A DNA stretch of 64,000 nt, from assembly GCA_964016885.1 (NCBI GenBank), contig OZ024744.1:94426001-94490000 (forward strand), given 5' to 3'. This document shows positions 36,001 through 64,000 of the stretch, in pieces. Within the stretch, counting starts at the first letter, position 1, and the number at the start of each line of letters is the position of its first letter. The stretch is from Eledone cirrhosa. Its lineage: Eukaryota. The notes beneath the pieces were generated by a model. The model made no database searches. It had not been told where the DNA came from and was given only the letters and a program-made list of their open reading frames with translations. The position numbers were made by a program, and so were the translations under genes.

Positions 36001-39000
36001 ACAGTATGGGCTGGGTGCTTTTTGTCATGACACCAAAACAACCACTTTACAGTGTGGACTGGGTGCTTTTTGTCGTGACACTAACACAACCACTTTACAG
36101 TGTGGACTGGGAGCTTTTTGTCGTGACACCAACACAACCACTTTACTGTGTGGGCTGGGTGCTTTTTGTCGTGACACCAACGCAACCACTTTACAGTGTG
36201 GGCTGGGTGCTTTTTGTCGTGACACGAACACAACCACTTTACAGTGTGGACTGGGTGCTTTTTGTCGTGACACCAACACAACCACTTTACAGTGTGGGCT
36301 GGGTGCTTTCTGTCATGACATCAACACAACCACTTTACAGTGTGGACTGGCTGCTTTTTGTCGTGACACTAACACAACCACTTTACAGTGTGGGCTGGGT
36401 GCTTTTTGTCGTGACACCAACACAACCACTTTACAGTGTGGACTGGGTGCTTTTTGTTGTGACACCAACACAACCACTTTACAGTGTGGACTGGGAGCTT
36501 TTTGTCGTGAGACCAACACAACCACTTTACAGTGTGGGCTGGGTGCTTTTTGTTGTGACACCAACACAACCACTTTACAGTGTGGGCTGGGTACTTTTTG
36601 TCATGACACTAATACAACCACTTTACAGTGTGGGCTGGGTGCTTTTTGTCGTGACACCAACACAATCACTTTACAGTGTGGACTGGGTGCTTTTTGTCGT
36701 GACACCAACACAACCACTTTACAGTGTGGGCTGGGTGCTTTTTGTCGTGACACCAACACAACCACTTTACAGTGTGGGCTGGGTGCTTTTTGTCATTACA
36801 CCTACATGACCACCTTACAGTGTGGAATGGGTGCTTTTTGTCGTGACACCAACACAACCACTTTACAGTGTGGGCTGGGTGCTTTTTGTCGTGACACGAA
36901 CACAACCACTTTACAGTGTGGACTGGGTGCTTTTTGTCGTGACACCAACACAACCACTTTACAGTGTGGGCTGGGTGCTTTCTGTCGTGACATCAACACA
37001 ACCACTTTACAGTGTGGACTGGGTGGTTTTTGTCATGACACCTACATGACCACCTTACAGTGTGGGCTGGGTGCTTTCTGTCGTGACACCAACACAACCA
37101 CTTTACAGTGTGGACTGGGTGCTTTTTGTCGTGACACCAACACAACCACTTTACAGTGTGGGCTGGGTGCTTTTTGTCGTGACACTTACATGACCACTTT
37201 ACAGTGTGGGCTGGGTGCTGTTTGTCATGACACCAACACAACCACTTTACAGTGTGGACTGGGTGCTTTTTGTCGTGACACTAACACAACCACTTTACAG
37301 TGTGGGCTGGGCGCTTTTTGTTGTGACACCTACACAACCACTTCACAGTGTGGGCTGGGTGCTTTTTGTCATGACACCAACACAACCACTTTACAGTGTG
37401 GACTGGGAGCTTTTTGTCGTGACACCAACACAACCACTTCACAGTGTGGGCTGGGTGCTTTTTGTCATGACACCAACACAACCACTTTACAGTGTGGGCT
37501 GGGTGCTTTTTGTCGTGACACCAACACAACCACTTTACAGTGTGGGCTGGGTGCTTTTTGTCGTGACACAAACACAGCCACTTTACAGTGTGGACTGGGA
37601 GCTTTTTGTCGTGACACCAACACAACCACTTTACAGTGTGGGCTGGGTGCTTTTTGTCGTGACACCAACGCAACCACATTACAGTGTGGGCTGGGTGCTT
37701 TTTGTCTTGACACGAACACAACCACTTTACAGTGTGGACTGGGTGCTTTTTGTCGTGACACCAACACAACCACTTTACAGTGTGGGCTGGGTGCTTTCTG
37801 TCGTGACATCAACACAACCACTTTACAGTGTGGACTGGGTGCTTTTTGTCGTGACACTAACACAACCACTTTACAGTGTGGGCTGGGTGCTTTTTGTCGT
37901 GACACCAACACAAACACTTTACAGTGTGGACTGGGTGCTTTTTGTCGTGACACCAACACAACCACTTTACAGTGTGGGCTGGGTGCTTTTTGTCGTGACA
38001 CGAACACAACCACTTTACAGTGTGGGCTGGGTGCTTTTTGTCATGACACCTACATGACCACCTTACAGTGTGGGCTGGGTGCCTTCTGTCGTGACACCAA
38101 CACAACCACTTTACAGTGTGGGCTGGGTGCTTTTTGTCGTGACACCAACACAACCACTTTACAGTGTGGACTGGGTGCTTTTTGTCGTGACACCAACACA
38201 ACCACTTTAGAGTGTGGACTGGGTGCTTTTTGTCGTGACACTTACATGACCACTTTACAGTGTAGGCTGGATGCTTTTTGTCGTGACACCAACACAACCA
38301 CTTTACAGTGTGGACTGGGTGCTTTTTGTCGTGACACCAACACAACCACTTCACAGTGTGGGCTGGGTGCTTTTTGTCATGACACCAACACAACCACTTT
38401 AGAGTGTGGACTGGGAGCTTTTTGTCGAGACACCAACACAACCACTTCACAGTGTGGGCTGGGTGCTTTTTGTCATGGCACCAACACAACCACTTTACAG
38501 TGTGGACTGGGTGCTTTTTGTCGTGACACTAACTCAACCACTTTACAGTGTGGGCTGGGTGCTTTTTGTTGTGACACCTACACAACCACTTCACAGTGTG
38601 GGCTGGGTGCTTTTTGTCATGACACCAACACAACCACTTTACAGTGTGGACTGGGAGCTTTTTGTCGTGACACCAACACAACCACTTCACAGTGTGGGCT
38701 GGGTGCTTTTTGTCATGACACCAAAACAACCACTTTACAGTGTGGACTGGGTGCTTTTTGTCGTGACACTAACACAACCACTTTACAGTGTGGACTGGGA
38801 GCTTTTTGTCGTGACACCAACACAACCACTTTACAGTGTGGGCTGGGTGCTTTTTGTCATGACACCAACGCAACCACTTTACAGTGTGGGCTGGGTGCTT
38901 TTTTTCGTGACACGAACACAACCACTTTACAGTGTGGACTGGGTGCTTTTTGTCGTGACACCAACACAACCACTTTACAGTGTGGACTGGCTGCTTTTTG

Positions 39001-42000
39001 TGGTGACACTAACACAACCACTTTACAGTGTGGGCTGGTCACTTTTTGTTGTGACACCAACACAACCACTTTACAGTGTGGACTGGGTGCTTTTTGTCGT
39101 GACACCAACACAACCACTTTACAGTGTGGGCTGGGTGCTTTTTGTTGTGACACCAACACAACCACTTTACAGTGTGGACTGGGTGCTTTTTGTCATGACA
39201 CTAATACAACCACTTTACAGTGTGGGCTGGGTACTTTTTGTCATGACACTAATACAACCACTTTACAGTGTGGGCTGGGTGCTTTTTGTCATGACACCTA
39301 CATGACCACCTTACAGTGTGGAATGGGTGCTTTTTGTCGTGACACCAACACAACCACCTTACAGTGTGGGCTGGGTGCTTTTTGTCGTGACACCAACGCA
39401 ACCACTTTACAGCGTGGGCTTGGTGCTTTTTGTCGCGACACCAACACAACCACTTTACAGTGTGGGCTGGGTGCTTTTTGTTGTGACACCTACACAACCA
39501 CTTCACAGTGTGGGCTGGGTGCTTTTTGTCATGACACCAACACAACCACTTTACAGTGTGGACTGGGAGCTTTTTGTCGTGACACTAACACAACCACTCT
39601 ACAGTGTGGGCTGGGTGCTTTTTGTTGTGACACCTACAGAACCACTTCACAGTGTGGGCTGGGTGCTTTTTGTCATGACACCAACACAACCACTTTACAG
39701 TGTGGACTGGGAGCTTTTTGTCGTGACACCAACACAACCACTTCACAGTGTGGGCTGGGTGCTTTTTGTCATGACACCAACACAACCACTTTACAGTGTG
39801 GACTGGGTGCTTTTTGTCGTGACACTAACACAACCACTTTACAGTGTGGACTGGGAGCTTTTTGTCGTGACACCAACACAACCACTTTACAGTGTGGGCT
39901 GGGTGCTTTTTGTCGTGACACCAACGCAACCACATTACAGTGTGGGCTGGGTGCTTTTTGTCGTGACACGAACACAACCACTTTACAGTGTGGACTGGGT
40001 GCTTTTTGTCGTGACACCAACACAACCACTTTACAGTGTGGGCTGGGTGCCTTCTGTCGTGACATCAACACAACCACTTTACAGTGTGGACTGGGTGCTT
40101 TTTGTCGTGACACTAACACAACCACTTTACAGTGTGGGCTGGGTGCTTTTTGTCGTGACACCAACACAAACACTTTACAGTGTGGACTGGGTGCTTTTTG
40201 TCGTGACACCAACACAACCACTTTACAGTGTGGGCTGGGTGCTTTTTGTCGTGACACAAACACAACCACTTTACAGTGTGGGCTGGGTGCTTTTTGTCAT
40301 GACACCTACATGACCACCTTACAGTGTGGGCTGGGTGCCTTCTGTCGTGACACCAACACAACCACTTTACAGTGTGGGCTGGGTGCTTTTTGTCGTGACA
40401 CCAACACAATCACTATACAGTGTGGACTGGGTGCTTTTTGTCATGACACCAACACAACGACTTTGCAGTGTGGACTGGGAGCTTTTGGTCGTGACACCAA
40501 CACAACCACTTCACAGTGTGGGCTGGGTGCTTTTTGTTGTGACACCTACACAACCACTTCACAGTATGGGCTGGGTGCTTTTTGTCATGACACCAAAACA
40601 ACCACTTTACAGTGTGGACTGGGAGCTTTTTGTCGTGACACCAACACAACCACTTCACAGTGTGGGCTGGGTGCTTTTTGTCATGACACCAACACAACCA
40701 CTTTACAGTGTGGACTGGGTGCTTTTTGTCGTGACACTAACACAACCACTTTACAGTGTGGACTGGGAGCTTTTTGTCGTGACACCAACACAACCACTTT
40801 ACTGTGTGGGCTGGGTGCTTTTTGTCGTGACACCAACGCAACCACTTTACAGTGTGGGCTGGGTGCTTTTTGTCGTGACACGAACACAACCACTTTACAG
40901 TGTGGACTGGGTGCTTTTTGTCGTGACACCAACACAACCACTTTACAGTGTGGGCTGGGTGCTTTCTGTCATGACATCAACACAACCACTTTACAGTGTG
41001 GACTGGCTGCTTTTTGTCGTGACACTAACACAACCACTTTACAGTGTGGGCTGGGTGCTTTTTGTCGTGACACCAACACAACCACTTTACAGTGTGGACT
41101 GGGTGCTTTTTGTTGTGACACCAACACAACCACTTTACAGTGTGGACTGGGAGCTTTTTGTCGTGACACCAACACAACCACTTTACAGTGTGGGCTGGGT
41201 GCTTTTTGTTGTGACACCAACACAACCACTTTACAGTGTGGGCTGGGTACTTTTTGTCATGACACTAATACAACCACTTTACAGTGTGGGCTGGGTGCTT
41301 TTTGTCGTGACACCAACACAATCACTTTACAGTGTGGAATGGGTGCTTTTTGTCGTGACACCAACACAACCACTTTACAGTGTGGGCTGGGTGCTTTTTG
41401 TCGTGACACCAACACAACCACTTTACAGTGTGGGCTGGGTGCTTTTTGTCATTACACCTACATGACCACCTTACAGTGTGGAATGGGTGCTTTTTGTCGT
41501 GACACCAACACAACCACTTTACAGTGTGGGCTGAGTGCTTTTTGTCGTGACACGAACACAACCACTTTACAGTGTGGACTGGGTGCTTTTTGTCGTGACA
41601 CCAACACAACCACTTTACAGTGTGGGCTGGGTGCTTTCTGTCGTGACATCAACACAACCACTTTACAGTGTGGACTGGGTGGTTTTTGTCATGACACCTA
41701 CATGACCACCTTACAGTGTGGGCTGGGTGCTTTCTGTCGTGACACCAACACAACCACTTTACAGTGTGGACTGGGTGCTTTTTGTCGTGACACCAACACA
41801 ACCACTTTACAGTGTGGGCTGGGTGCTTTTTGTCGTGACACTTACATGACCACTTTACAGTGTGGGCTGGGTGCTGTTTGTCATGACACCAACACAACCA
41901 CTTTACAGTGTGGACTGGGTGCTTTTTGTCGTGACACTAACACAACCACTTTACAGTGTGGGCTGGGCGCTTTTTGTTGTGACACCTACACAACCACTTC

Positions 42001-45000
42001 ACAGTGTGGGCTGGGTGCTTTTTGTCATGACACCAACACAACCACTTTACAGTGTGGACTGGGAGCTTTTTGTCGTGACACCAACACAACCACTTCACAG
42101 TGTGGGCTGGGTGCTTTTTGTCATGACACCAACACAACCACTTTACAGTGTGGGCTGGGTGCTTTTTGTCGTGACACCAACACAACCACTTTACAGTGTG
42201 GGCTGGGTGCTTTTTGTCGTGACACAAACACAGCCACTTTACAGTGTGGACTGGGAGCTTTTTGTCGTGACACCAACACAACCACTTTACAGTGTGGGCT
42301 GGGTGCTTTTTGTCGTGACACCAACGCAACCACATTACAGTGTGGGCTGGGTGCTTTTTGTCGTGACACGAACACAACCACTTTACAGTGTGGACTGGGT
42401 GCTTTTTGTCGTGACACCAACACAACCACTTTACAGTGTGGGCTGGGTGCTTTCTGTCGTGACATCAACACAACCACTTTACAGTGTGGACTGGGTGCTT
42501 TTTGTCGTGACACTAACACAACCACTTTACAGTGTGGGCTGGGTGCTTTTTGTCGTGACACCAACACAAACACTTTACAGTGTGGACTGGGTGCTTTTTG
42601 TCGTGACACCAACACAACCACTTTACAGTGTGGGCTGGGTGCTTTTTGTCGTGACACAAACACAACCACTTTACAGTGTGGGCTGGGTGCTTTTTGTCAT
42701 GACACCTACATGACCACCTTACAGTGTGGGCTGGGTGCCTTCTGTCGTGACACCAACACAACCACTTTACAGTGTGGGCTGGGTGCTTTTTGTCGTGACA
42801 CCAACACAACCACTTTACAGTGTGGACTGGGTGCTTTTTGTCGTGACACCAACACAACCACTTTAGAGTGTGGACTGGGTGCTTTTTGTCGTGATACTTA
42901 CATGACCACTTTACAGTGTAGGCTGGATGCTTTTTGTTGTGACACCTACACAACCACTTCACAGTGTGGGCTGGGTGCTTTTTGTCATGACACCAACACA
43001 ACCACTTTACAGTGTGGACTGGGAGCTTTTTGTCGTGACACCAACACAACCACTTCACAGTGTGGGCTGGGTGCTTTTTGTCATGACACCAAAACAACCA
43101 CTTTACAGTGTGGACTGGGTGCTTTTTGTCGTGACACTAACACAACCACTTTACAGTGTGGGCTGGGTGCTTTTTGTTGTGACACCTACACAACCACTTC
43201 ACAGTGTGGGCTGGGTGCTTTTTGTCATGACACCAACACAACCACTTTACAGTGTGGACTGGGAGCTTTTTGTCGTGACACCAACACAACCACTTCACAG
43301 TGTGGGCTGGGTGCTTTTTGTCATGACACCAAAACAACCACTTTACAGTGTGGACTGGGTGCTTTTTGTCGTGACACTAACACAACCACTTTACAGTGTG
43401 GACTGGGAGCTTTTTGTCGTGACACCAACACAACCACTTTACAGTGTGGGCTGGGTGCTTTTTGTCATGACACCAACGCAACCACTTTACAGTGTGGGCT
43501 GGGTGCTTTTTTTCGTGACACGAACACAACCACTTTACAGTGTGGACTGGGTGCTTTTTGTTGTGACACCAACACAACCACTTTACAGTGTGGCCTGGGT
43601 GCTTTTTGTCGTGACACCAACACAACCACTTTACAGTGTGGGCTGGGTGCTTTTTGTCGTGACACCAACACAACCACTTTACAGTGTGGGCTGGGTGCTT
43701 TTTGTTGTGACACCAACACAACCACTTTACAGTGTGGACTGGGTGCTTTTTGTCATGACACTAATACAACCACTTTACAGTGTGGGCTGGGTACTTTTTG
43801 TCATGACACTAATACAACCACTTTACAGTGTGGGCTGGGTGCTTTTTGTCATGACACCTACATGACCACCTTACAGTGTGGAATGGGTGCTTTTTGTCGT
43901 GACACCAACACAACCACCTTACAGTGTGGGCTGGGTGCTTTTTGTCGTGACACCAACGCAACCAATTTACAGCGTGGGCTTGGTGCTTTTTGTCGTGACA
44001 CCAACACAACCACTTTACAGTGTGGACTGGGTGCTTTTTGTTGTGACACCTACACAACCACTTCACAGTGTGGGCTGGGTGCTTTTTGTTATGACACCAA
44101 CACAACCACTTTACAGTGTGGACTGGGAGCTTTTCGTCGTGACACTAACACAACCACTTTACAGTGTGGGCTGGGTGCTTTTTGTTGTGACACCTACAGA
44201 ACCACTTCACAGTGTGGGCTGGGTGCTTTTTGTCATGACACCAACACAACCACTTTACAGTGTGGACTGGGAGCTTTTTGTCGTGACACCAACACAACCA
44301 CTTCACAGTGTGGGCTGGGTGCTTTTTGTCATGACACCAACACAACCACTTTACAGTGTGGACTGGGTGCTTTTTGTCGTGACACTAACACAACCACTTT
44401 ACAGTGTGGACTGGGAGCTTTTTGTCGTGACACCAACACAACCACTTTACAGTGTGGGCTGGGTGCTTTTTGTCGTGACACCAACGCAACCACATTACAG
44501 TGTGGGCTGGGTGCTTTTTGTCGTGACACGAACACAACCACTTTACAGTGTGGACTGGGTGCTTTTTGTCGTGACACCAACACAACCACTTTACAGTGTG
44601 GGCTGGGTGCCTTCTGTCGTGACATCAACACAACCACTTTACAGTGTGGACTGGGTGCTTTTTGTCGTGACACTAACACAACCACTTTACAGTGTGGGCT
44701 GGGTGCTTTTTGTCGTGACACCAACACAAACACTTTACAGTGTGGACTGGGTGCTTTTTGTCGTGACACCAACACAACCACTTTACAGTGTGGGCTGGGT
44801 GCTTTTTGTCGTGACACAAACACAACCACTTTACAGTGTGGGCTGGGTGCTTTTTGTCATGACACCTACATGACCACCTTACAGTGTGGGCTGGGTGCCT
44901 TCTGTCGTGACACCAACACAACCACTTTACAGTGTGGGCTGGGTGCTTTTTGTCGTGACACCAACACAACCACGTTACAGTGTGGACTGGGTGCTTTTTG

Positions 45001-48000
45001 TCGTGACACCAACACAACCACTTTAGAGTGTGGACTGGGTGCTTTTTGTCGTGACACTTACATGACCACTTTACAGTGTAGGCTGGATGCTTTTTGTCGT
45101 GACACCAACACAACCACTTTACAGTGTGGACTGGGAGCTTTTTGTCGTGACACCAACACAACCACTTCACAGTGTGGGCTGGGTGCTTTTTGTCATGACA
45201 CCAAAACAACCACTTTACAGTGTGGACTGGGTGCTTTTTGTCGTGACACTAACACAACCACTTTACAGTGTGGACTGGGAGCTTTTTGTCGTGACACCAA
45301 CACAACCACTTTACAGTGTGGGCTGGGTGCTTTTTGTCATGACACCAACGCAACCACTTTACAGTATGGGCTGGGTGCTTTTTTTCGTGACACGAACACA
45401 ACCACTTTACAGTGTGGACTGGGTGCTTTTTGTCGTGACACCAACACAACCACTTTACAGTGTGGACTGGCTGCTTTTTGTCGTGACACTAACACAACCA
45501 CTTTACAGTGTGGGCTGGTCACTTTTTGTCGTGACACCAACACAACCACTTTACAGTGTGGACTGGGTGCTTTTTGTCGTGACACCAACACAACCACTTT
45601 ACAGTGTGGGCTGGGTGCTTTTTGTCGTGACACCAACACAACCACTTTACAGTGTGCGCTGGGTGCTTTTTGTCGTGACACCAACACAACCACTTTACAG
45701 TGTGGACTGGGTGCTTTTTGTCATGACACTAATACAACCACTTTACAGTGTGGGCTGGGTGCTTTTTGTCATGACACCTACATGACCACCTTACAGTGTG
45801 GAATGGGTGCTTTTTGTCGTGACACCAACACAACCACCTTACAGTGTGGGCTGGGTGCTTTTTGTCGTGACACCAACGCAACCACTTTACAGCGTGGGCT
45901 TGGTGCTTTTTGTCGCGACACCAACACAACCACTTTACAGTGTGGACTGGGTGCTTTTTGTTGTGACACCTACACAACCACTTCACAGTGTGGGCTGGGT
46001 GCTTTTTGTCATGACACCAACACAACCACTTTACAGTGTGGACTGGGAGCTTTTTGTCGTGACACCAACACAACCACTTCACAGTGTGGGCTGGGTGCTT
46101 TTTGTCATGACACCAAAACAACCACTTTACAGTGTGGACTGGGTGCTTTTTGTCGTGACACTAACACAACTACTTTACAGTGTGGACTGGGATCTTTTTG
46201 TCGTGACACCAACACAACCACTTTGCAGTGTGGGCTGGGTGCTTTTTGTCATGACACCAACGCAACCACTTTACAGTGTGGGCTGGGTGCTTTTTTTCGT
46301 GACACGAACACAACCACTTTACAGTGTGGACTGGGTGCTTTTTGTCGTGACACCAACACAACCACTTTACAGTGTGGACTGGCTGCTTTTTGTCGTGACA
46401 CTAACACAACCACTTTACAGTGTGGGCTGGTCACTTTTTGTCGTGACACCAACACAACCACTTTACAGTGTGGACCGGGTGCTTTTTGTCGTGACACCAA
46501 CACAACCACTTTACAGTGTGGGCTGGGTGCTTTTTGTCGTGACACCAACACAACCACTTTACAGTGTGGGCTGGGTGCTTTTTGTCGTGACACCAACACA
46601 ACCACTTTACAGTGTGGACTGGGTGCTTTTTGTCATGACACTAATACAACCACTTTACAGTGTGGGCTGGGTACTTTTTGTCATGACACTAATACAACCA
46701 CTTTACAGTGTGGGCTGGGTGCTTTTTGTCATGACACCTACATGACCACCTTACAGTGTGGAATGGGTGCTTTTTGTCGTGACACCAACACAACCACTTT
46801 ACAGTGTGGGCTGGGTGCTTTTTGTCGTGACACCAACGCAACCACTTTACAGCGTGGGCTTGGTGCTTTTTGTCGCGACACCAACACAACCACTTTACAG
46901 TGTGGACTGGGTGCTTTTTGTTGTGACACCAACACAACCACTTTACAGTGTGGGCTGGGTACTTTTTGTCGTGACACCAACACAACCACTTTACAGTGTG
47001 GACTGGGTGCTTTTTGTCGTGACACTAACACAACCACTTTACAGTGTGGACTGGCTGCTTTTTGTCGTGACACTAACACAACCACTTTACAGTGTGGGCT
47101 GGTCACTCTTTGTCGTGACACCAACACAACCACTTTACAGTGTGGACTGGGTGCTTTTTGTCGTGACACCAACACAACCACTTTACAGTGTGGACTGGGT
47201 GCTTTTTGTCGTGACACCAACACAACCACTTTACAGTGTGGGCTGGGTGCTTTTTGTCGTGACACCAACACAACCACTTTACAGTGTGGGCTGGGTGCTT
47301 TTTGTCGTGACACTAACACAACCACTTTACAGTGTGGACTGGGTGCTTTTTGTCATGACACTAATACAACCACTTTACAGTGTGGGCTGGGTACTTTTTG
47401 TCATGACACTAATACAACCACTTTACAGTGTGGGCTGGGTGCTTTTTGTCATGACACCTACATGACCACCTTACAGTGTGGAATGGGTGCTTTTTGTCGT
47501 GACACCAACACAACCACCTTACAGTGTGGGCTGGGTGCTTTTTGTCGTGACACCAACGCAACCACTTTACAGCGTGGGCTGGGTGCTTTTTGTTGTGACA
47601 CCTACACAACCACTTCACAGTGTGGGCTGGGTGCTTTTTGTCATGACACCAACACAACCACTTTACAGTGTGGACTGGGAGCTTTTTGTCATGACACCAA
47701 CACAACCACTTTACAGTGTGGGCTTGGTGCTTTTTGTCGCGACACCAACACAACCACTTTACAGTGTGGACTGGGTGCTTTTTGTTGTGACACCTACACA
47801 ACCACTTCACAGTGTGGGCTGGGTGCTTTTTGTCATGACACCAACACAACCACTTTACAGTGTGGACTGGGAGCTTTTTGTCGTGACACCAACACAACCA
47901 CTTCACAGTGTGGGCTGGGTGCTTTTTGTCATGACACCAAAACAACCACTTTACAGTGTGGACTGGGTGCTTTTTGTCGTGACACTAACACAACCACTTT

Positions 48001-51000
48001 ACAGTGTGGACTGGGATCTTTTTGTCGTGACACCAACACAACCACTTTACAGTGTGGGCTGGGTGCTTTTTGTCATGACACCAACGCAACCACTTTACAG
48101 TGTGGGCTGGGTGCTTTTTTTCGTGACACGAACACAACCACTTTACAGTGTGGACTGGGTGCTTTTTGTCGTGACACCAACACAACCACTCTACAGTGTG
48201 GACTGGCTGCTTTTTGTCGTGACACTAACACAACCACTTTACAGTGTGGGCTGGTCACTTTTTGTCGTGACACCAACACAACCACTTTACAGTGTGGACT
48301 GGGTGCTTTTTGTCGTGACACCAACACAACCACTTTACAGTGTGGGCTGGGTGCTTTTTGTCGTGACACCAACACAACCACTTTACAGTGTGGGCTGGGT
48401 GCTTTTTGTCGTGACACCAACACAACCACTTTACAGTGTGGACTGGATGCTTTTTGTCATGACACTAATACAACCACTTTACAGTGTGGGCTGGGTACTT
48501 TTTGTCATGACACTAATACAACCACTTTACAGTGTGGGCTGGGTGCTTTTTGTCATGACACCTACATGACCACCTTACAGTGTGGAATGGGTGCTTTTTG
48601 TCATGACACCAACACAACCACTTTACAGTGTGGGCTGGGTGCTTTTTGTCGTGACACCAACGCAACCACTTTACAGCGTGGGCTTGGTGCTTTTTGTCGC
48701 GACACCAACACAACCACTTTACAGTGTGGACTGGGTGCTTTTTGTTGTGACACCAACACAACCACTTTACAGTGTGGGCTGGGTACTTTTTGTCGTGACA
48801 CCAACACAACCACTTTACAGTGTGGACTGGGTGCTTTTTGTCGTGACACTAACACAACCACTTTACAGTGTGGACTGGCTGCTTTTTGTCGTGACACTAA
48901 CACAACCACTTTACAGTGTGGGCTGGTCACTCTTTGTCGTGACACCAACACAACCACTTTACAGTGTGGACTGGGTGCTTTTTCTCGTGACACTAACACA
49001 ACCACTTTACAGTGTGGGCTGGCTGCTTTTTGTTGTGACACCAACACAACCACTTTACAGTGTGGGCTGGGTGCTTTTTGTCATGACACTAATACAACCA
49101 CTTTACAGTGTGGGCTGGGTGCTTTTTGTCATGACACCTACATGACCACCTTAAAGTGTGGAATGGGTGCTTTTTGTCGTGACACCAACACAACCACTTT
49201 ACAGTGTGGACTGGGTGCTTTTTGTCGTGACACCAACACAACCACTTTACAGTGTGGGCTGGGTGCTTTTTGTCGTGACACCAACACAACCACTTTACAG
49301 TGTGGACTGGGTGCTTTTTGTTGTGACACCAACACAACCACTTTACAGTGTGGACTGGGAGCTTTTTGTCGTGACACCAACACAACCACTTTACAGTGTG
49401 GGCTGGGTGCTTTTTGTCATGACACCAACGCAACCACATTACAGTGTGGGCTGGGTGCTTTTTGTCGTGACACGAACACAACCACTTTACAGTGTGGACT
49501 GGGTGCTTTTTGTTGTGACACCAACACAACCACTTTACAGTGTGGGCTGGGTGCTTTCTGTCGTGACATCAACACAACCACTTTACAGTGTGGACTGGGT
49601 GCTTTTTGTTGTGACACCAACACAACCACTTTACAGTGTGGGCTGGGTACTTTTTGTCATGACACTAATACAACCACTTTACAGTGTGGGCTGGGTGCTT
49701 TTTGTCGTGACACCAACACAACCACTTTACAGTGTGGACTGGGTGCTTTTTGTCGTGACACCAACACAACCACTTTACAGTGTGGGCTGGGTGCTTTTTG
49801 TCGTGACACCTACATGACCACCTTACAGTGTGGAATGGGTGCTTTTTGTCGTGACACCAACACAACCACCTTACAGTGTGGGCTGGGTGCTTTTTGTCGT
49901 GACACCAACGCAACCACTTTACAGCGTGGGCTTGGTGCTTTTTGTCGCGACACCAACACAACCACTTTACAGTGTGGACTGGGTGCTTTTTGTCGTGACA
50001 CCAACACAACCACTTTACAGTGTGGGCTGGGTGCTTTTTGTCGTGACACCAACACAACCACTTTACAGTGTGGACTGGGTGCTTTTTGTCATGACACTAA
50101 TACAACCACTTTACAGTGTGGGCTGGGTACTTTTTGTCATGACACTAATACAACCACTTTACAGTGTGGGCTGGGTGCTTTTTGTCATGACACCTACATG
50201 ACCACCTTACAGTGTGGGCTGGGTGCTTTTTGTTGTGACACCAACACAACCACTTTACAGTGTGGGCTGGGTGCTTTTTGTCGTGACATCAACGCAACCA
50301 CTTTACAGCGTGGGCTGGGTGCTTTTTGTCGCGACACCAACACAACCACTTTACAGTGTGGACTGGGTGCTTTTTGTTGTGACACCAACACAACCACTTT
50401 ACAGTGTGGGCTGGGTGCTTTTTGTTGTGACACCAACACAACCACCTTACAGTGTGGACTGGGTGCTTTTTGTCGTGACACTAACACAACCACTTTACAG
50501 TGTGGACTGGGTGCTTTTTGTCGTGGCACTAACACAACCACTTTACAGTGTGGGCTGGCTGCTTTTTGTTGTGACACCAACACAACCACTTTACAGTGTG
50601 GGCTGGGTGCTTTTTGTCATGACACTAATACAACCACTTTACAGTGTGGGCTGGGTGCTTTTTGTCATGACACCTACATGACCACCTTAAAGTGTGGAAT
50701 GGGTGCTTTTTGTCGTGACACCAACTCAACCACTTTAGAGTGTGGGCTGGGTGCTTTTTGTCGTGACACCAACACAACCACTTTACAGTGTGGACTGGGT
50801 GCTTTTTGTCGTGACACCAACACAACCACTTTACAGTGTGGGCTGGGTGCTTTTTGTCGTGACACCAACACAACCACTTTACAGTGTGGATTGGGTGCTT
50901 TTTGTCGCGACACCAACACAACCACTTTACAGTGTGGGCTGGGTGCTTTTTATCATGACATCTACATGACCACCTTACAGTGTGGACTGGGTGCTTTTTG

Positions 51001-51040
51001 CTGTATCTTTGACAGAACCACTTTACAGCGTGGGCTGGGT
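1..51040. repeat. 48-bp satellite array A, about 1060 tandem monomers, consensus ACCACTTTACAGTGTGG(G/A)CTGGGTGCTTTTTGTC(G/A)TGACACCAACACA; continues past the left edge
   Basis: Uninterrupted 48-bp periodicity in the sequence and 16-aa periodicity in the ORF track. Only four 1-bp deletions seen (~8806, ~10821, ~34436, ~34963). Terminal monomers at 50940-51040 are degenerate. Confidence 0.99.
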
Positions 51041-51307
51041 TCTTTCACCTCCAAAGGACGTCATCTGAAACACAGCAATATACCGCATAACATTGCTTCT
51101 GAAGTGTTGCTTCGTTAGTACAGACTGTAAGTAGTATATGGATAAAAGCTGGAGGGTAGATTATTTTCAAATAGTATCACTTTTTCTTTCTTCTGTGGAA
51201 TCAAAGACTAAAATGACTTTATAAAAGCTAACACAATATTGTTAAACCGTCTTATAGATCAAAGGTTCTATAGTTTAAGCCGTTTCTAGATTTTTGTGGG
51301 ACATTAC

Positions 51308-51444
51308 TCTCTCTCTATGAATATCTAACACTTTAATTGTATCTCTCTCTGTATAAAGGCCTCTCTCTTTCTGCCTCTCCCTCTGTGTCTCTCTTTCTTT
51401 AGATGTGTATGTGTGTATGCATGTGTATGTGTGTGTGTGTGTGT
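51308..51444. repeat. Degenerate (CT)n followed by (ATGTGT)/(GT)n microsatellite tract
   Basis: Direct reading: ctctctctct...ctctctctttctgcctctccctctgtgtctctct, then atgtgtatgtgtgtatgcatgtgtatgtgtgtgtgtgt. Confidence 0.85.
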
Positions 51445-51459
51445 AGTTTTCGAGTGATT

Positions 51460-51605
51460 CAACCAACCAACCAACCGACCAACCAGCCAGCCAACCAATC
51501 AACCAACCAACCAACCAACCAACCAACCAACCAACCAACCAACCAACCAACCAGCCAACCAACCAACCAACCAACCAACCAACCAACCAACCAACCAACC
51601 AACCA
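51460..51605. repeat. (CAAC)n tetranucleotide microsatellite, about 36 units
   Basis: Direct reading, with a few CAGC/CGAC/CAAT interruptions. Confidence 0.97.
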
Positions 51606-51800: not shown

Positions 51801-52044
51801 ACTCAGCTGAAGAGCTTTCTTTACCTTATAATGGTAGAGGCAGGATAAGAAGTAGGAAGAATTATAGGCATGATACCATGGCTGAGCTATTATAGGTGGG
51901 GTCTGTAATGTTGAAAACTCCAAAAGATTTGGAAATCATTTAAGAGTATTTATCATTTTTTCCCATGTTTATAGGGAGCTATTTGGCATTTTTACATGTT
52001 TAAATCCTTAACCCTTTAGCATTTACATTACTCTATATATACTA

Positions 52045-55285: not shown

Positions 55286-55476
55286 GGGCGGTGGATTGGC
55301 AGTATCGGTAGAGGGTCGGACGCCATGCTTTCCAGCATAGTTACGTCCCTTTACGATGTGAGTTCAAATCCCGCCGAAGTTGACTTTGCCTTTCATCCTT
55401 ACGGGGTCGATAAAATAAAGTACCAGTAATGCACTGGGTAATTGCTGGCCTTGTGCCTAGAGTAGAAACAATTATT
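55286..55476 (+). mobile_element. tRNA-derived SINE, full-length copy
   Basis: Pol III A-box-like TGGCAGTATCGG (~55297), B box GAGTTCAAATCC (55360-55371), core GCCTTTCATCCTTACGGGGTCGATAAAATAAAGTACCAG, AT-rich tail. Four related copies occur in the window. Confidence 0.85.
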
Positions 55477-55570
55477 TTAAATTTTTAATCTCCTATTTGC
55501 AATGCTCTAACTCCTTAAAAAACTCACATATTAACTTGCTAGAAATCATTCACTCAATTTGAAAATGCTG

Positions 55571-55820
55571 TTATTGTTTAACATCTGTTTTCCCTGCTAG
55601 CAACGGTTGAACATGTCATTGCAGACTAGTTAGTATTCAAGCAGGGCTTCTGACCTCCAGATGGACTATGTTCTACCAAGTGCATTTTATTGTGGCACCA
55701 GTATTAGGGAAATTGTCATGTCTTAGACAAAGATGAAGAATCCTTCGGACACTTCTTTTTTTTTTTCCCTGCAAGTTTTTTTATGGTTCAATGCTCTTCC
55801 TACCACCAACCACTTTACAT
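55571..55820 (-). mobile_element. Degenerate 3'-end remnant(s) of the same RTE family (unamplified)
   Basis: TTTAACATCTGTTTTCCCTGCTAGCAACGG resembles 56451 TTTAACGTCCATTTTTCCATGTTGGCATGG. It also contains TTTTATTGTGGCACC (~55685) and TTATGGTTCAATGCTCTTCCTACCACCAACCACTTTACA (~55781-55819). Confidence 0.6.
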
Positions 55821-56028
55821 ATATATAAATATATATATAAGGGGGGCAGAGCAACTTGTGCTAATTCTATTGTTTACACATAAAAGTAAGGATATCTAAA
55901 ATCTTTATTACAAATGAATCCACTTCTGTTGTTGTTTTCTTCCAGTTTTTGTCCACAGCTTCTCTTTTCTTTTCTCGCTCTGTTGAGTGGATCTATTAGA
56001 AACATAAAAGATATACACTATTATATAT

Positions 56029-56143
56029 GAGTTCAAATCCCACCGAGGTTAACTTTGCCTTTCTTCCTTACGGGGTCAATAAAATAAAGTACCAGTAATG
56101 CACTGGGTAATTGCTGGCCTTGTGCCAAAAGTAGAAACAATTA
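56029..56143 (+). mobile_element. 5'-truncated tRNA-derived SINE with an apparent 11-bp target-site duplication
   Basis: Starts at B box GAGTTCAAATCC and is near-identical to 55360-55474. Flanked by ATTATATATGA at 56020-56030 and 56140-56150. Confidence 0.85.
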
Positions 56144-56232
56144 TATATGAATGTACATATTGTATATTTAATAATATACAGGATGTTTATGATAAACTGT
56201 CACATACTGTATCATGCTTAATCTCCTTGTAA

Positions 56233-56423
56233 TTTGAATTACAGGTACAATTCATGTTGTATTATAGTCTATGTGGCTGAGTATTCCACAGACATGTGTG
56301 TACCTTTAACATAATTCTCAGGGAGATTCAGTATGACACAGTGTGTGACATGGCTACTTCTTTGAATTACAGGTACAGTATATATTATAATGTAAATGGC
56401 TGAATATTCCACAGACACGTGTA
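56233..56423. repeat. ~120-bp repeat family C, left part (GTGGCTGAGTATTCCACAGACA...TTTGAATTACAGGTACA)
   Basis: Partial unit at 56233, full unit 56273-56380, and a unit starting at ~56397 that breaks off at the LINE tail. Matches 63648-63690 and 63871-64000. Confidence 0.75.
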
Positions 56424-56589
56424 TCATCATCATCATCATCATTATCACCATTTAACGTCCATTTTTCCATGTTGGCATGGCTTAGACAAGTTGCTCCATT
56501 GTAAGACAAGCCAGGTCAGGAGACCATGTCTGGCTCATACAGAACTGATTTGGGCTTGGTTTCTATGGCTGCATGTCCTTCTTAACACC

Positions 56590-59500
56590 AACCTCATTTA
56601 CAGTGTGGACTGGGTGCTTTTTATTGTGGCACCTACATGACCACTTTACAATGTGGACTGGGTGCTTTTTATTGTGGCACCTACATGACCACTTTACAGT
56701 GTGGACTGGGTGCTTTTTGTCGTGACACCTACATGACCACTTTACAGTGTGGACTGGGTGCTTTTTGTCGTAACACCTACATGACCACTTTACAGTGTGG
56801 ACTGGGTGCTTTTTGTCGTGACACCTACATGACCTCTTTACAGTGTGGACTGGGTGCTTTTTGTCGTGACACCTACATGACCACTTTACAGTGTGGACTG
56901 GGTGCTGTTTATTGTGGCACCTACATGACCACTTTACAGTGAGTATTGGGTGCTTTTTGTCGTGACACCTACACGAACACTTTACAGTGTGGACTGGGTG
57001 CTGTTTATTGTGGCACCTACATGACCACTTTACAGTGTGGACTGGGTGCTGTTTATTGTGGCACCTACATGACCACTTTACAGTGTGGACTGGATGCTGT
57101 TTATTGTGGCACCTACATGACCACTTTACAGTGTGGACTGGGTGCTGTTTATTGTGGCACCTACATGACCACTTTACAGTGAGTATTGGGTGCTTTTTGT
57201 CGTGACACCTACACGAACACTTTACAGTGTGGACTGGGTGCTTTTTGTCGTGACATATACATGACCACTTTACAGTGAGTATTGAGTGCTTTTTGTCGTG
57301 ACACCTACATGACCATTTTACAGTGTGGACTGGGTGCTTTTTGTCGTGACACCTACATGACCACTTTACCAGTGAGTATTGGGTGCTGTTTATTGTGGCA
57401 CCTACATGACCACTTTACAGTGTGGACTGGGTGCTGTTTATTGTGGCACCTACATGACCACTTTACAGTGTGGACTGGGTGCTGTTTATTGTGGCACCTA
57501 CATGACCACTTTACAGTATGGGCTGGGTGCTTTTTGTCGTGACACCAACATGACCACTTTACAGTGTGGACTGGGTGCTTTTTGTCATGACATCTACATG
57601 ACCACTTTACAGTGTGGACTGGGTGCTTTTTGTCGTGACACCAACATGACCACTTTACAGTGTGGACTGGGTGCTTTTTGTCATGACACCTACATGACCA
57701 CTTTACAGTGTGGGCTGGGTGCTTTTTGTCATGACAACTACATGACCACTTTACAGTGTGGACTGGGTGCTTTTTGTCATGACACCTACATGACCACTTT
57801 ACAGTGTGGACTGGGTGCTGTTTATTGTGGCACCTACATGACCACTTTACAGTGTGGACTGGGTGCTGTTTATTGTGGCACCTACATGACCACTTTACAG
57901 TGAGTATTGGGTGCTTTTTGTCATGACATCTACATGACCACTTTACAGTGTGGACTGGGTGCTGTTTATTGTGGCACCTACATGACCACTTTACAGTGTG
58001 GACTGGGTGCTTTTTGTCGTGACACCTACATGACCACTTGACAGTGAGTATTGGGTGCTTGTTGTCATGACATCTACATGACCACTTTACAGTGTGGACT
58101 GGGTGCTGTTTATTGTGGCACCCACATGACCACTTTACAGTGTGTAGTGGGTGCTTTTTGTCATGACATCTACATGACTACTTTACAGTGTGGGCTGGGT
58201 GCTTTTTGTCATGACATCTACATGACCACTTTACAGTGTGGACTGGGTGCTTTTTGTTGTGACACCTACATGACCACTTTACAGAGAGTATCGGCAGCTT
58301 TTTGTCATGACATCTACACGACCACTTTACAGTGTGGACTGGGTACTTTTTGTCGTGACACCTACATGACCACTTTACAGTGTGGACTGGGTGCTTTTTG
58401 TCATGACATCTACATGACCACTTTACAGTGTGGACTGGGTGCTTTTTGTCATGACATCTACATGACCACTTTACAGTGTGGGCTGGGTGCTTTTTGTCAT
58501 GACATCTACGTGACCACTTTACAGTGTGGACTGGGTGCTTTTTGTCATGACACCTACATGACCACTTTACAGTGTGGACTGGGTGCAGTTTATTGTGGCA
58601 CCTACATGACCACTTTACAGTGTGGACTGGGTGCTGTTTATTGTGGCACCTACATGACCACTTTACAGTGTGGACTGGGTGCTTTTTGTCATGACACCTA
58701 CATGACCACTTTACAGTGAGTATTGGGTGCTTTTTGTCATGACATCTACATGACCACTTTACAGTGTGGACTGGGTGCTGTTTATTGTGGCACCTACATG
58801 ACCACTTTACAGTGTGTAGTGGGTGCTTTTTGTCATGACATCTACATGACCACTTTACAGTGTGGACTGGGTGCTTTTTGTTGTGACACCTACATGACCA
58901 CTTTACAGTGAGTATCGGCAGCTTTTTGTCATGACATCTACACGACCACTTTACAGTGTGGACTGGGTGCTGTTTATTGTGGCACCTACATGACCACTTT
59001 ACAGTGTGGACTGGGTGCTTTTTGTCGTGACACCTACATGACCACTTTACAGTGTGGACTGGGTGCTGTTTATTGTGGCACCTACATGACCACTTTACAG
59101 TGTGGACTGGGTGCTGTTTATTGTGGCACCTACATGACCACTTTACAGTGTGGACTGGGTGCTTTTTGTCATGACACCTACATGACCACTTTACAGTGAG
59201 TATTGGGTGCTTTTTGTCATGACATCTACATGACCACTTTACAGTGTGGACTGGGTGCTGTTTATTGTGGCACCTACATGACCACTTTACAGTGTGGACT
59301 GGGTGCTGTTTATTGTGGCACCTACATGACCACTTTACAGTGAGTATTGGGTGCTTTTTGTCATGACATCTACATGACCACTTTACAGTGTGGACTGGGT
59401 GCTGTTTATTGTGGCACCTACATGACCACTTTACAGTGTGTAGTGGGTGCTTTCTGTCATGACATCTACATGACTACTTTACAGTGTGGGCTGGGTGCTT

Positions 59501-62500
59501 TTTGTCATGACATCTACATGACCACTTTACAGTGTGGACTGGGTGCTTTTTGTTGTGACACCTACATGACCACTTTACAGTGAGTATCGGCAGCTTTTTG
59601 TCATGACATCTACACGACCACTTTACAGTGTGGACTGGGTGCTGTTTATTGTGGCACCTACATGACCACTTTACAGTGTGGACTGGGTGCTTTTTGTCGT
59701 GACACCTACATGACCACTTTACAGTGAGTATTGGGTGCTTTTTGTCATGACATCTACATGACCACTTTACAGTGTGGACTGGGTGCTGTTTATTGTGGCA
59801 CCTACATGACCACTTTACAGTGTGGACTGGGTGCTGTTTATTGTGGCACCTACATGACCACTTTACAGTGTGGACTGGGTGCTTTTTGTCATGACACCTA
59901 CATGACCACTTTACAGTGAGTATTGGGTGCTTTTTGTCATGACATCTACATGACCACTTTACAGTGTGGACTGGGTGCTGTTTATTGTGGCACCTACATG
60001 ACCACTTTACAGTGTGGACTGGGTGCTTTTTGTCATGACACCTACATGACCACTTTACAGTGAGTATTGGGTGCTTTTTGTCATGACATCTACATGACCA
60101 CTTTACAGTGTGGACTGGGTGCTGTTTATTGTGGCACCTACATGACCACTTTACAGTGTGTAGTGGGTGCTTTTTGTCATGACATCTACATGACTACTTT
60201 ACAGTGTGGGCTGGGTGCTTTTTGTCATGACATCTACATGACCACTTTACAGTGTGGACTGGGTGCTTTTTGTTGTGACACCTACATGACCACTTTACAG
60301 TGAGTATCGGCAGCTTTTTGTCATGACATCTACACGACCACTTTACAGTGTGGACTGGGTGCTGTTTATTGTGGCACCTACATGACCACTTTACAGTGTG
60401 GACTGGGTGCTTTTTGTCGTGACACCTACATGACCACTTTACAGTGTGGACTGGGTGCTGTTTATTGTGGCACCTACATGACCACTTTACAGTGTGGACT
60501 GGGTGCTGTTTATTGTGGCACCTACATGACCACTTTACAGTGTGGACTGGGTGCTTTTTGTCATGACACCTACATGACCACTTTACAGTGAGTATTGGGT
60601 GCTTTTTGTCATGACATCTACATGACCACTTTACAGTGTGGACTGGGTGCTGTTTATTGTGGCACCTACATGACCACTTTACAGTGTGGACTGGGTGCTT
60701 TTTGTCATGACACCTACATGACCACTTTACAGTGAGTATTGGGTGCTTTTTGTCATGACATCTACATGACCACTTTACAGTGTGGACTGGGTGCTGTTTA
60801 TTGTGGCACCTACATGACCACTTTACAGTGTGTAGTGGGTGCTTTTTGTCATGACATCTACATGACTACTTTACAGTGTGGGCTGGGTGCTTTTTGTCAT
60901 GACATCTACATGACCACTTTACAGTGTGGACTGGGTGCTTTTTGTTGTGACACCTTCATGACCACTTTACAGTGAGTATCGGCAGCTTTTTGTCATGACA
61001 TCTACACGACCACTTTACAGTGTGGACTGGGTGCTGTTTATTGTGGCACCTACATGACCACTTTACAGTGTGGACTGGGTGCTTTTTGTCGTGACACCTA
61101 CATGACCACTTTACAGTGTGGACTGGGTGCTGTTTATTGTGGCACCTACATGACCACTTTACAGTGTGGACTGGGTGCTGTTTATTGTGGCACCTACATG
61201 ACCACTTTACAGTGTGGACTGGGTGCTTTTTGTCATGACACCTACATGACCACTTTACAGTGAGTATTGGGTGCTTTTTGTCATGACATCTACATGACCA
61301 CTTTACAGTGTGGACTGGGTGCTGTTTATTGTGGCACCTACATGACCACTTTACAGTGTGGACTGGGTGCTGTTTATTGTGGCACCTACATGACCACTTT
61401 ACAGTGTGGACTGGGTGCTTTTTGTCATGACACCTACATGACCACTTTACAGTGAGTATTGGGTGCTTTTTGTCATGACATCTACATGATCACTTTACAG
61501 TGTGGACTGGGTGCTGTTTATTGTGGCACCTACATGACCACTTTACAGTGTGTAGTGGGTGCTTTTTGTCATGACATCTACATGACTACTTTACAGTGTG
61601 GGCTGGGTGCTTTTTGTCATGACATCTACATGACCACTTTACAGTGTGGACTGGGTGCTTTTTGTTGTGACACCTACATGACCACTTTACAGTGAGTATC
61701 GGCAGCTTTTTGTCATGACATCTACACGACCACTTTACAGTGTGGACTGGGTGCTGTTTATTGTGGCACCTACATGACCACTTTACAGTGTGGACTGGGT
61801 GCTTTTTGTCGTGACACCTACATGACCACTTTACAGTGTGGACTGGGTGCTTTTTGTTGTGACACCTACATGACCACTTTACAGTGTGTACTGGGTACTT
61901 TTTGTCGTGACACCTACATGACCACTTTACAGTGTGTACTGGGTGCTTTTTGTCATGACACCAACATGACCACTTTACAGTGTGGACTGGGTGCTTTTTG
62001 TCATGACACCAACATGACCACTTTACAGTGTGGACTGGGTACTTTTTGTCGTGACACCAACATGACCACTTTACAGTGTGGACTGGGTACTTTTTGTCGT
62101 GACACCTACATGACCACTTTACAGTGTGGACTGGGTGCTTTTTGTCATCACACCAACATGACCACTTTACAGTGTGGACTGGGTGCTTTTTGTCATGACA
62201 CCAACATGACCACTTTACAGTGTGTACTGGGTACTTTTTGTCGTGACACCTACATGACCACTTTACAGTGTGTACTGGGTGCTTTTTGTCATGACACCAA
62301 CATGACCACTTTACAGTGTGGACTGGGTGCTTTTTGTCATGACACCAACATGACCACTTTACAGTGTGGACTGGGTACTTTTTGTCGTGACACCAACATG
62401 ACCACTTTACAGTGTGGACTGGGTACTTTTTGTCGTGACACCTACATGACCACTTTACAGTGTGGACTGGGTGCTTTTTGTTGTGACACCAATATGACCA

Positions 62501-63140
62501 CTTTACAGTGTGGACTGGGTACTTTTTGTCGTGACACCTACATGACCACTTTACAGTGTGGACTGGGTGTTTTTGTTGTAACACCTACATGACCACTTTA
62601 CAGTGTGGACTGGGTGCTTTTTGTCATCACACCAACATGACCACTTTACAGTGAGTATTGGGTACTTTTTGTCGTGACACCAACATGACCACTTTACAGT
62701 GTGGACTGGGTGTTTTTGTTGTAACACCTACATGACCACTTTACAGTGTGGACTGGGTGCTTTTTGTCATCACACCAACATGACCACTTTACAGTGAGTA
62801 TTGGGTACTTTTTGTCGTGACACCTACATGACCACTTTACAGTGTGGACTGGGTACTTTTTGTCGTGACACCAACATGACCACTTTACAGTGTGGACTGG
62901 GTACTTTTTGTCGTGACACCTACATGACCACTTTACAGTGTGGACTGGGTGCTTTTTGTCATCACACCAATATGACCACTTTACAGTGTGGACTGGGTAC
63001 TTTTTGTCGTGACACCTACATGACCACTTTACAGTGTGGACTGGGTGCTTTTTGTCGTGACACCAACATGACCACTTTACAGTGTGGACTGGGTACTTTT
63101 TGTCGTGACACCAACATGACCACTTTACAGTATGGGCTGG
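56590..63140. repeat. 48-bp satellite array B, about 136 monomers, subfamily consensus ACCACTTTACAGTGTGGACTGGGTGCTTTTTGTC(A/G)TGACACCTACATG
   Basis: Same period and orientation as array A, but TACATG is dominant and there are private variants GTTTATTGTGGCACC, TGAGTATTGG and TGAGTATCGGCAGC. Confidence 0.98.
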
Positions 63141-63237
63141 AGGCTTCAGTGGATGTATACTCCAGCTTGTCCTCGTGGGAGATGTATGGGAGGGTAAGGT
63201 GAAGTGAGGTGGTGCATACTGTATATATGCTTCAGTT

Positions 63238-63648
63238 TCAGCCTGTGCCCATGGGAAGTCGGGTTTTCTGTATTACTGCGTAACACCAGAGGTCTCAGTC
63301 CTGTGTCTACATCTTTGAGAGGTGCGATTGGGCAAGGTCAGCTTTTATCACCTTGTCCAAAGTCTTCCTAGGTCTCCCCACTCCACGCCTTCCATCAACT
63401 TTAAGCACTCTGCACCTTTTTTCTGCAGTTGTCATCCTTCATACATATCACATGTCCATACCAACACAATCTCCTTTCCTGCTCACTGCATCTGATTCCT
63501 CTGATGCCTAGTTTCTCTCTCTCAGTTTATGCTTTGCTGTTCACGTAAGTTACTATTACACATCTATCGGAGCATACAAGCTTCATTTCTTTCCAATATT
63601 TGCAGGTTCTCTGCACGCAGCACCCAGGAACCACTACATTATAAAATA
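63238..63648 (-). pseudogene. Decayed C-terminal part of an RTE-like LINE ORF (downstream of the RT domain)
   Basis: Manual translation: SGSWVLRAENLQILERNEACMLR*MCN ... ERRLCWYGHVICMKDD ... KVDGRRGVGRPRKTLDKVIKADL ... D*DLWCYAVIQKTR. This matches the RTE-clade motifs GSETW, MLRW, RLRWxGHVxR, GRPRKTW and DRxxWR, with stops and probable frameshifts. Confidence 0.85.
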
Positions 63649-64000
63649 CAGTCTGTGACAAGGTTGGCTCTTTGAATTACAGCTACAGTCTAATTGGCAG
63701 TATTAGTAGAGCGTCAGACACCATGCTTTACAGCATAGAGTTACTGCCCTTTACGTTCTGACTTCAAATCCTGCCGAGGCTAACTTTGCCTTTCTTCCTT
63801 ACGGGGTCGATAAAATAAAGTACCAGTAATGTACTGGGGTAATGCTGGCCTTGTGCCAAAAATAGAAACGATTATAATGTCAGTGGCTGAGTATTCCACA
63901 GACACTTAATGTAATTGTCAGGGAGATTCAGCATGACACAGTGTGTGACAAGGTTGGCTCTTTGAATTACAGATACAGTCCATGTTGTATTATTGTGCAA
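63648..64000. repeat. ~120-bp repeat family C, right part (interrupted by a SINE)
   Basis: ACAGTCTGTGACAAGGTTGGCTCTTTGAATTACAG at 63648, and ATTATAATGTCAGTGGCTGAGTATTCCACAGACAC...TTTGAATTACAGATACAGTCCATGTTGTATTAT at 63871-64000, both matching 56233-56423. Confidence 0.75.
63693..63875 (+). mobile_element. tRNA-derived SINE copy
   Basis: TTGGCAGTATTAGTAG (A-box-like), GACTTCAAATCC (mutated B box), and the same core and tail as 55286-55476. Confidence 0.85.

What the first reader, a model, noticed from the sequence alone, without database searches (positions are those of the whole stretch)
56423..63648. Satellite origin visible in place: a 6.5-kb 48-bp array expanded inside an RTE LINE 3' UTR
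Seen: array B is bracketed, in the right order and strand, by an RTE ORF end on one side and the LINE terminal stem-loop plus (GAT)n tail on the other. The first monomers (56590-56690, TTTTTATTGTGGCACC) blend into the UTR sequence and match unamplified copies at ~51760 and ~55685. Established: satellites can derive from TE segments. Inference: this family's 3' UTR carries a ~48-bp module that is prone to tandem amplification, so retrotransposition could seed arrays genome-wide, including the >51-kb array A next door.
Basis: partly seen in the sequence, partly recalled or inferred. Interest (0 to 1): 0.75.

Follow-up and report, generated by a model that had tools for sequence, protein, structure and literature searches.

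The report
Jumping-gene tail swollen into satellite
A 48-base repeat that occurs two or three times in the tail of a common jumping gene occurs 136 times in this one copy, which keeps both of its original ends, and the 67,000-base block next door ends in its own copy of that tail, so both blocks likely grew on the spot after insertion, a known route to satellite DNA that is unusually easy to follow here.

Summary
Observation confirmed. Array B (56597-63140, 136 x 48 bp) lies between the end of a broken LINE ORF and the family's 3' tail with (GAT)n. 25 of 29 other copies run body, monomers (about 1-9), same tail. Young intact elements (single APE+RT+PHD ORF) carry a fixed 2 or 3 units. Both flanks of B belong to one host repeat, so this is one insertion. 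Array A (67 kb, 1,400 units, partly outside the window) ends in its own tail (72% like B's) and shares almost no variants with B: a separate copy. Of 32 arrays with a resolved 3' end, 29 end in the tail (control 3 of 60). Near-identical internal blocks inside old, diverged copies point to growth after insertion by DNA-level unequal exchange (inferred); I found no sign that expanded arrays retrotranspose. RTE clade fits structurally but was not tested on a tree. Same process as Ogre 3'-UTR satellites and reptile SINE satellites; this scan already reported the same family at five other places in this genome.

The parts
63238..63637 (-). Last ~130 codons of a decayed LINE ORF (5'-truncated copy), stop codon at 63240-63238
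   Evidence: 80-84% to 29 genomic copies; 78-80% to intact APE+RT+PHD elements L165/L169; stops and frameshifts; stop position
63141..63237 (-). C-rich 5' part of the LINE 3' UTR leading into the first repeat unit
   Evidence: same sequence precedes the module in other copies
56597..63140 (-). Array B: 136 copies of the 48-bp UTR module; 41 distinct variants, irregular 14-15-unit higher-order blocks
   Evidence: block 61349-60437 repeats at 60677-59765 with 1 mismatch in 912 bp
56451..56596 (-). LINE 3' tail with terminal 5-bp hairpin (56467-56480)
   Evidence: scores best to the same old subfamily as the body
56423..56450 (-). (GAT)n 3' end of the element
   Evidence: sequence; same end in young elements
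56270..56422 (+). Left half of the host repeat into which the LINE inserted
   Evidence: one uninterrupted host copy elsewhere matches both flanks in order
63644..63695 (+). Right half of the same host repeat; about 30 bp of host missing at the site, no target-site duplication
   Evidence: one empty host copy only
1..51045 (-). Array A, right three quarters: separate tail-bearing copy, 67.2 kb and about 1,400 units in all (G000:C28:94409828-94477031); tail and (GAT)n lie about 16.2 kb left of the window; no LINE body at its 5' end
51043..51605 (-). Dispersed repeat (Helitron-like by its ends, label recalled) cut off exactly where array A begins; its last ~250 bp are absent from 264 kb around

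Best explanation
Array B is the 48-bp repeat module of a LINE 3' UTR, present 136 times inside one 5'-truncated copy that keeps its ORF end and its tail, and it likely grew there after insertion by repeated unequal exchange between misaligned units. Shown: the module is native to the family (2-3 units in intact young elements), B is one insertion, A is a second tail-bearing copy, and most sampled kb-scale arrays end in the tail. Inferred: retrotransposition, which starts at the 3' end, scatters tail plus 1-3 units (often without the body); in a minority of copies slippage first adds units, then unequal crossover or break repair duplicates ever larger blocks (14-15 units in B, 48-156 in A), each locus fixing its own variants. 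Deletions or duplications that break inside an array remove the body in some cases (A, C28:126.65 Mb).
For: Body-module-tail order in 25 of 29 copies. Module length fixed in young copies (130-133 bp in 18 of 18, 92 bp in 2 of 2) but 0.7-9 units in 25 measurable of 29 old copies, then 23 to 1,400 units in 33 arrays. B's flanks are 16-20% diverged from other copies, yet internal blocks differ by 1 of 912 bp; in A by 2 of 3072 and 15 of 5664 bp. Flanks of B fit one host repeat. A and B share 1 exact monomer type out of 205 and 41; their commonest private variants occur 0 times in the other array; tails 72% alike. Monomer type follows tail subfamily: 8 of 8 arrays (query locus left out) with the L165-type monomer and a scorable tail score best to the L165 tail, 3 of 3 with the ordinary monomer do not. 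Array tails are no more alike (mean 79%, 19 tails) than tails of short copies (mean 84%, 24 tails). Body present at 12 of 32 arrays against 22 of 47 short copies, p 0.49.
Against: No unexpanded allele of this locus was seen (uninformative), so growth in place is read from states, not observed. The exchange mechanism itself is untested. 20 of 32 arrays, A among them, lack the body, so both ends are shown for only a minority; 3 of the 12 body hits are just 28-32 bp and the body control is high (7 of 60). 3 of 32 arrays lack the tail. Arrays were the top hits of similarity searches, not a full census. One pair (C20:10.03 Mb, C28:126.65 Mb) shows that arrays also spread by DNA duplication. The terminal-unit mark of short copies (12 of 19 last units) survives in only 4 of 23 arrays and not in A or B. 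Near-identical blocks could in part be assembly error; reads were not checked.
Confidence: 0.85

Rival explanations
1. Expanded arrays are themselves transcribed with the tail and retrotransposed by the LINE machinery, so arrays move as long SINE-like units.
For: Strong polarity: tail at 29 of 32 arrays, body at 12 of 32. Many intact young ORFs exist to supply the enzyme. Several bodyless arrays start straight after (TA)n, as fresh insertions do.
Against: No cluster of near-identical tails with different flanks: the only 100% pair also shares 1.9 kb of downstream flank at 95-97%, next best 94% against 93% among short copies. Body loss is no more frequent than in short copies (p 0.49). Young elements have fixed unit numbers.
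Confidence: 0.07
2. The satellite came first; the LINE captured two or three units, and long arrays acquired tails by recombining with LINE copies.
For: Array consensus sequences at many loci are close to each other, as for one old satellite family; the C20/C28 pair shows breakpoints inside arrays.
Against: Units in subfamilies 75% identical over the ORF are diverged from each other in a subfamily-specific way, arrays follow their tail's subfamily, tail-less arrays are rare (3 of 32), B's flanks fit a single insertion, lengths form a continuum from 1 unit up. The similar consensus is partly due to how the arrays were found.
Confidence: 0.04
3. The array was made in one step by reverse-transcriptase slippage during insertion.
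For: The module sits close to the 3' end where reverse transcription begins; some young-type copies hold 6-36 units.
Against: 20 of 20 young intact copies keep the fixed number; nested near-identical blocks inside a copy whose flanks are old need events long after insertion. Slippage may still give the first extra units.
Confidence: 0.03
4. Two unrelated LINE fragments merely flank a satellite block, or the assembly joined them.
For: No target-site duplication; the family is very abundant (11,467 first-look candidates).
Against: Both junctions are in exact register with the family's layout, body and tail fit the same subfamily, and both outer flanks belong to one host repeat.
Confidence: 0.01

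Closest known systems
Ogre LTR-retrotransposon 3'-region satellites (nine FabTR families of Lathyrus sativus, PMC7004042: abstract and section 7 read; PisTR-A of pea as cited in PMC9659126: passages)
   Same: Short tandem arrays at a fixed place downstream of the coding region, dispersed with the element, occasionally expanded into long arrays; continuum of lengths.
   Different: Here the carrier is a non-LTR element, so arrays are polar (tail kept, 5' side often lost). Expansion there is mainly pericentromeric; position relative to centromeres was not tested here.
SINE-derived satellites (sSats) of squamate reptiles (PMC10702118: abstract and Discussion read)
   Same: Tandem repeats of part of a non-LTR retroposon, with a longer terminal unit that runs to the element's end; up to 1000 units; a spectrum from internal duplications to satellites.
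   Different: There the duplication arises in genomic copies of a SINE; here the 2-3-unit seed is already part of the intact autonomous LINE, and arrays at different loci keep private variants.
LINE 3'-end-derived satellites: cetacean common satellite (L1), chicken HinfI (CR1), Drosophila 18HT (HeT-A/TART) (listed in PMC9659126: passages and table; PMC12628747: passages)
   Same: Monomer comes from the 3' non-coding part of a LINE.
   Different: As listed, those are inferred from monomer similarity; here the parent element's ends are still attached at many independent loci.
RTE-clade LINEs of octopus, e.g. RTE-2_OV (PMC9115989: passages); RTE-BovB expansion in cephalopods (PMC10294476: passages)
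   Same: Single ORF of about 1,050-1,100 codons with endonuclease, RT and a zinc-binding domain; microsatellite 3' end.

Membership tests
RTE-clade non-LTR retrotransposon | Single ORF with AP endonuclease and reverse transcriptase | tested here: met
   Intact relatives L165 and L160: Exo_endo_phos + RVT_1 + PHD in one frame of 1017 and 1013 aa from the match start; window body 78-80% to L165/L169; old-subfamily copy L017 has RVT_1. A separate ORF1 was not searched for systematically.
RTE-clade non-LTR retrotransposon | Short element ending in a microsatellite repeat instead of poly(A) | tested here: met
   3' UTR 289-381 nt ending in (GAT)n in young elements; feature as described in PMC9115989 and PMC13295347 (passages)
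RTE-clade non-LTR retrotransposon | RT groups with reference RTE/BovB sequences on a tree | not testable with these tools
   No clade-labelled references among 120 listed homologues; solved-structure hits are L1 and R2 only
RTE-clade non-LTR retrotransposon | Target-site duplication | tested here: not met
   For copy B about 30 bp of the host repeat are missing instead (one empty host copy). This concerns this copy; the family's copies were not surveyed for duplications.
Retrotransposon-derived satellite (Ogre type) | Short array at a fixed position inside the element | tested here: met
   25 of 29 old copies and 20 of 20 young copies
Retrotransposon-derived satellite (Ogre type) | Occasional expansion into long arrays still flanked by element sequence | tested here: met
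   33 arrays of 1.1 to 67 kb; tail at 29 of 32, body at 12 of 32
Retrotransposon-derived satellite (Ogre type) | Related species have the element but not the long arrays | not testable with these tools
   No relatives held for this genome; contigs of other organisms were too fragmented
Classical satellite DNA | Heterochromatic or centromeric location and concerted evolution across loci | not tested
   No chromatin data; A and B show homogenisation within each array but not between them

The most novel reading that the evidence does not exclude
The 48-bp module is kept by selection in the active LINE (and a partner SINE) as an RNA element, so every insertion plants a ready-made satellite seed; the genome then holds hundreds of independent, datable satellite births from one seed, with growth biased to the small chromosomes where exchange per base is likely highest. 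That would be a replicated natural experiment on how and where satellites are born.
Probability: 0.3. Interest if true: 0.65.

Novelty: new member of a known kind. Interest (0 to 1): 0.42.

Why it matters
How a two-copy repeat becomes a satellite is usually inferred from end products. Here the seed (2-3 units in intact young elements), the intermediates (4-60 units) and the products (up to 67 kb) are all present with the parent's ends attached, and two independent expansions sit 5.5 kb apart without having exchanged variants. That makes rates, block sizes and positional bias measurable. The principle is already in print for LTR elements and SINEs, so the value is in the clean, replicated LINE case. 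It also warns that these arrays give spurious giant reading frames.

Tried and rejected
Sequencing runs: no RNA holder listed; contigs of four runs laid on 55460-56596 were swamped by repeats and gave no unexpanded allele; neither is evidence. Ribozyme or known RNA family in the UTR: Rfam on three loci gave 19 sub-threshold hits, none at gathering score and none in the module or tail. Unusual DNA folding of the monomer as the cause of expansion: z-scores -1.29 to +1.19 for four dimers, not supported. Covariation of the terminal hairpin: none on both sides. A as offshoot of B, or exchange between them: rejected on private variants and 72% tails. A as a simple insertion into the Helitron-like repeat: rejected, the rest of that repeat is not beyond A's tail. 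Coding role for the 5,384-aa frame in A: stop-making substitutions seen 2 of 5, against 98 of 144 substitutions overall, no clear depletion. Rows dropped before counts: two chains that were other repeats (C22:21.878 Mb minus strand, C20:10.023 Mb), two chains at C4:222.16 Mb merged, one end unresolved at C3:226 Mb and at C10:54.4 Mb, L055/L067 counted once; one of the 47 short tails (L120) is really a long array miscounted by the walk; the unit counts for short copies failed at indels and were replaced. In one search, 19 of 30 loci were examined (one or two per array). Literature searches listed no paper on this satellite; PMC13282606 has no occurrence of 'satellite' in its main text. No supplements were read; repeat libraries in them could already hold this family.

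Full report
What is there. Tandem Repeats Finder gives a 48-bp array at 56597-63140 (136.4 copies, array B) and a larger one from the window start to 51045 (array A). Read on the minus strand, B is preceded by the decayed end of a reverse-transcriptase-type ORF and about 100 bp of C-rich UTR, and followed by a 174-bp tail with a 5-bp hairpin and (GAT)n. The sequence style suggests an octopus-like cephalopod; this is recalled, not tested.

The module belongs to the element. A search of the own genome with the body returned 29 other copies at 80-84%. In 25 of 29 the same tail follows downstream in the same orientation, with monomers between; three are cut or rearranged and one keeps only the start of the tail. 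The module measures 0.7 to 9 units, median 2.4, in the 25 of 29 copies where both anchors were found (one value includes a rearranged piece). A search with a full-length homologue found 43 matches, 42 without stops; of the 20 fetched, 18 form a family about 99% identical and 2 another, the two families 75% alike. Both encode one frame with AP endonuclease, RT and PHD domains. All 20 carry the module and a related tail: three diverged units (130-133 bp) in 18 of 18 and two units (92 bp) in 2 of 2.

B is one insertion. The sequence left of the (GAT)n end and right of the truncation point (about 63637) match the two halves of one host repeat, in order, as seen in an uninterrupted copy nearby; about 30 bp of host are missing and there is no target-site duplication (one empty copy). 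Body and tail both fit the older subfamily best.

B grew after it inserted (inferred). Its flanks are 16-20% diverged from other copies and the ORF is broken, but 111 of 134 parsed monomers have an identical twin and a 19-unit block recurs 14 units away with 1 mismatch in 912 bp. Array A shows the same on a larger scale: runs at lags of 48, 64, 108 and 156 units, e.g. 2 mismatches in 3072 bp. Nested block duplication of this kind is what unequal exchange produces (established knowledge of satellite evolution, recalled); the mechanism was not tested, and assembly error was not excluded.

Array A. It extends 16.2 kb left of the window, 67.2 kb and about 1,400 units in all, and ends in its own full tail and (GAT)n. 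Its 5' end has no LINE body; it abuts a dispersed Helitron-like repeat (label recalled from its ends) cut at the junction, whose remainder is not found in 264 kb around, which suggests a deletion. A and B share one exact monomer type; B's commonest variant is in 37 of 134 B units and 0 of 1,399 A units, A's in 685 of 1,399 and 0 of 134; their tails are 72% alike. They are independent expansions.

Genome-wide. Searching with 20 units of A gave 31 other arrays. With A and B, 33 arrays of 1.1-67 kb were examined: 29 of 32 resolved 3' ends carry the tail (random control 3 of 60) and 12 of 32 resolved 5' ends carry body (control 7 of 60; three hits are only 28-32 bp). Among short copies met in the same fetched DNA, 22 of 47 have body, not different (p 0.49; the two tests differ slightly). 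So loss of the body is the ordinary 5' truncation of LINE copies, plus later breaks. Tails of arrays are on average 79% alike, those of short copies 84%. The single identical pair, C20:10.03 Mb (2.6 kb, with body) and C28:126.65 Mb (32 kb, no body), shares downstream flank at 95-97%: a DNA duplication after which unit numbers diverged twelvefold. Arrays found with a monomer of the young L165 type carry L165-type tails in 8 of 8 scorable cases besides the query, while 3 of 3 with the ordinary monomer do not. These results favour many local expansions over movement of finished arrays. Against a tidy picture: 3 arrays lack tails, and the mark of the last unit in short copies is kept at the end of only 4 of 23 arrays (expected 0.2 from their interiors), not in A or B.

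The hairpin is real but shows no two-sided covariation. The sites at ~51760 and ~55685 match only at motif level. RTE membership is met for ORF layout and 3' microsatellite and untested on a tree.

Comparison. Reviews list LINE 3'-end satellites (PMC9659126, PMC12628747, passages). Five searches listed no paper on this family; supplements were not read. Earlier unreviewed notes of this scan describe the same family at other loci of this genome; they agree but are not independent support.

Verdict. Real and well supported; a new, clean member of a known kind. Interest 0.42.

Noticed in passing
L179, L180, L181, L192, L193, L194, L195, L203: In 8 of 19 loci examined, arrays of the L165-type monomer follow a SINE-like leader (pol III box-like motifs by eye) instead of a LINE body: a partner SINE appears to share the LINE's 3' end and expand the same module.
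   Followed up: partly
hits: About 24 of 33 other loci hit by array B lie on contigs C25-C27 (about 2.5% of the genome), 11 of them on C25 with a cluster at 18.4-19.1 Mb that may be duplicated. Only top candidates are scored, so this may be a search bias; counted by hand.
   Followed up: no
window 34964-51118 (+): Stop-free frame of 5,384 aa made of a 16-residue repeat; a by-product of a 48-bp unit with few indels, no clear depletion of stop-making changes.
   Followed up: yes
unit junctions of the module; L165:4580-4600: The junction CACT-GTAA-AGTG can form a 4-bp hairpin with a GNRA-type loop (265 of 284 junctions outside long arrays); a C-G compensated form occurs in 5 of 284, all with a GCAA loop and probably one event, and folds with probability 0.99 in L165, while the second junction there folds at 0.06. 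A weak lead for an RNA function.
   Followed up: partly
window 52030-54510: Two neighbouring Helitron-like elements (label recalled) with internal tandem repeats of 37 bp (3.5 copies) and 93 bp (9 copies); a copy of the 93-bp part with fewer units lies at C28:95.80 Mb.
   Followed up: no
G000:C3:226.016-226.082 Mb; C1:399.54-399.58 Mb; C1:2.39-2.44 Mb: Further very long arrays of the same module: over 65 kb at C3 with its 3' end not reached; the two C1 sites are seen only as scattered hits.
   Followed up: partly
array A, first and last units: Both terminal units of A carry a similar GTCA(A/G)AGA variant that the interior has lost, as expected if the edges escape homogenisation.
   Followed up: partly
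L158-L177: The genome holds many intact, about 99% identical copies of a related LINE family, often ending in (TA)n tracts: a recent burst.
   Followed up: no
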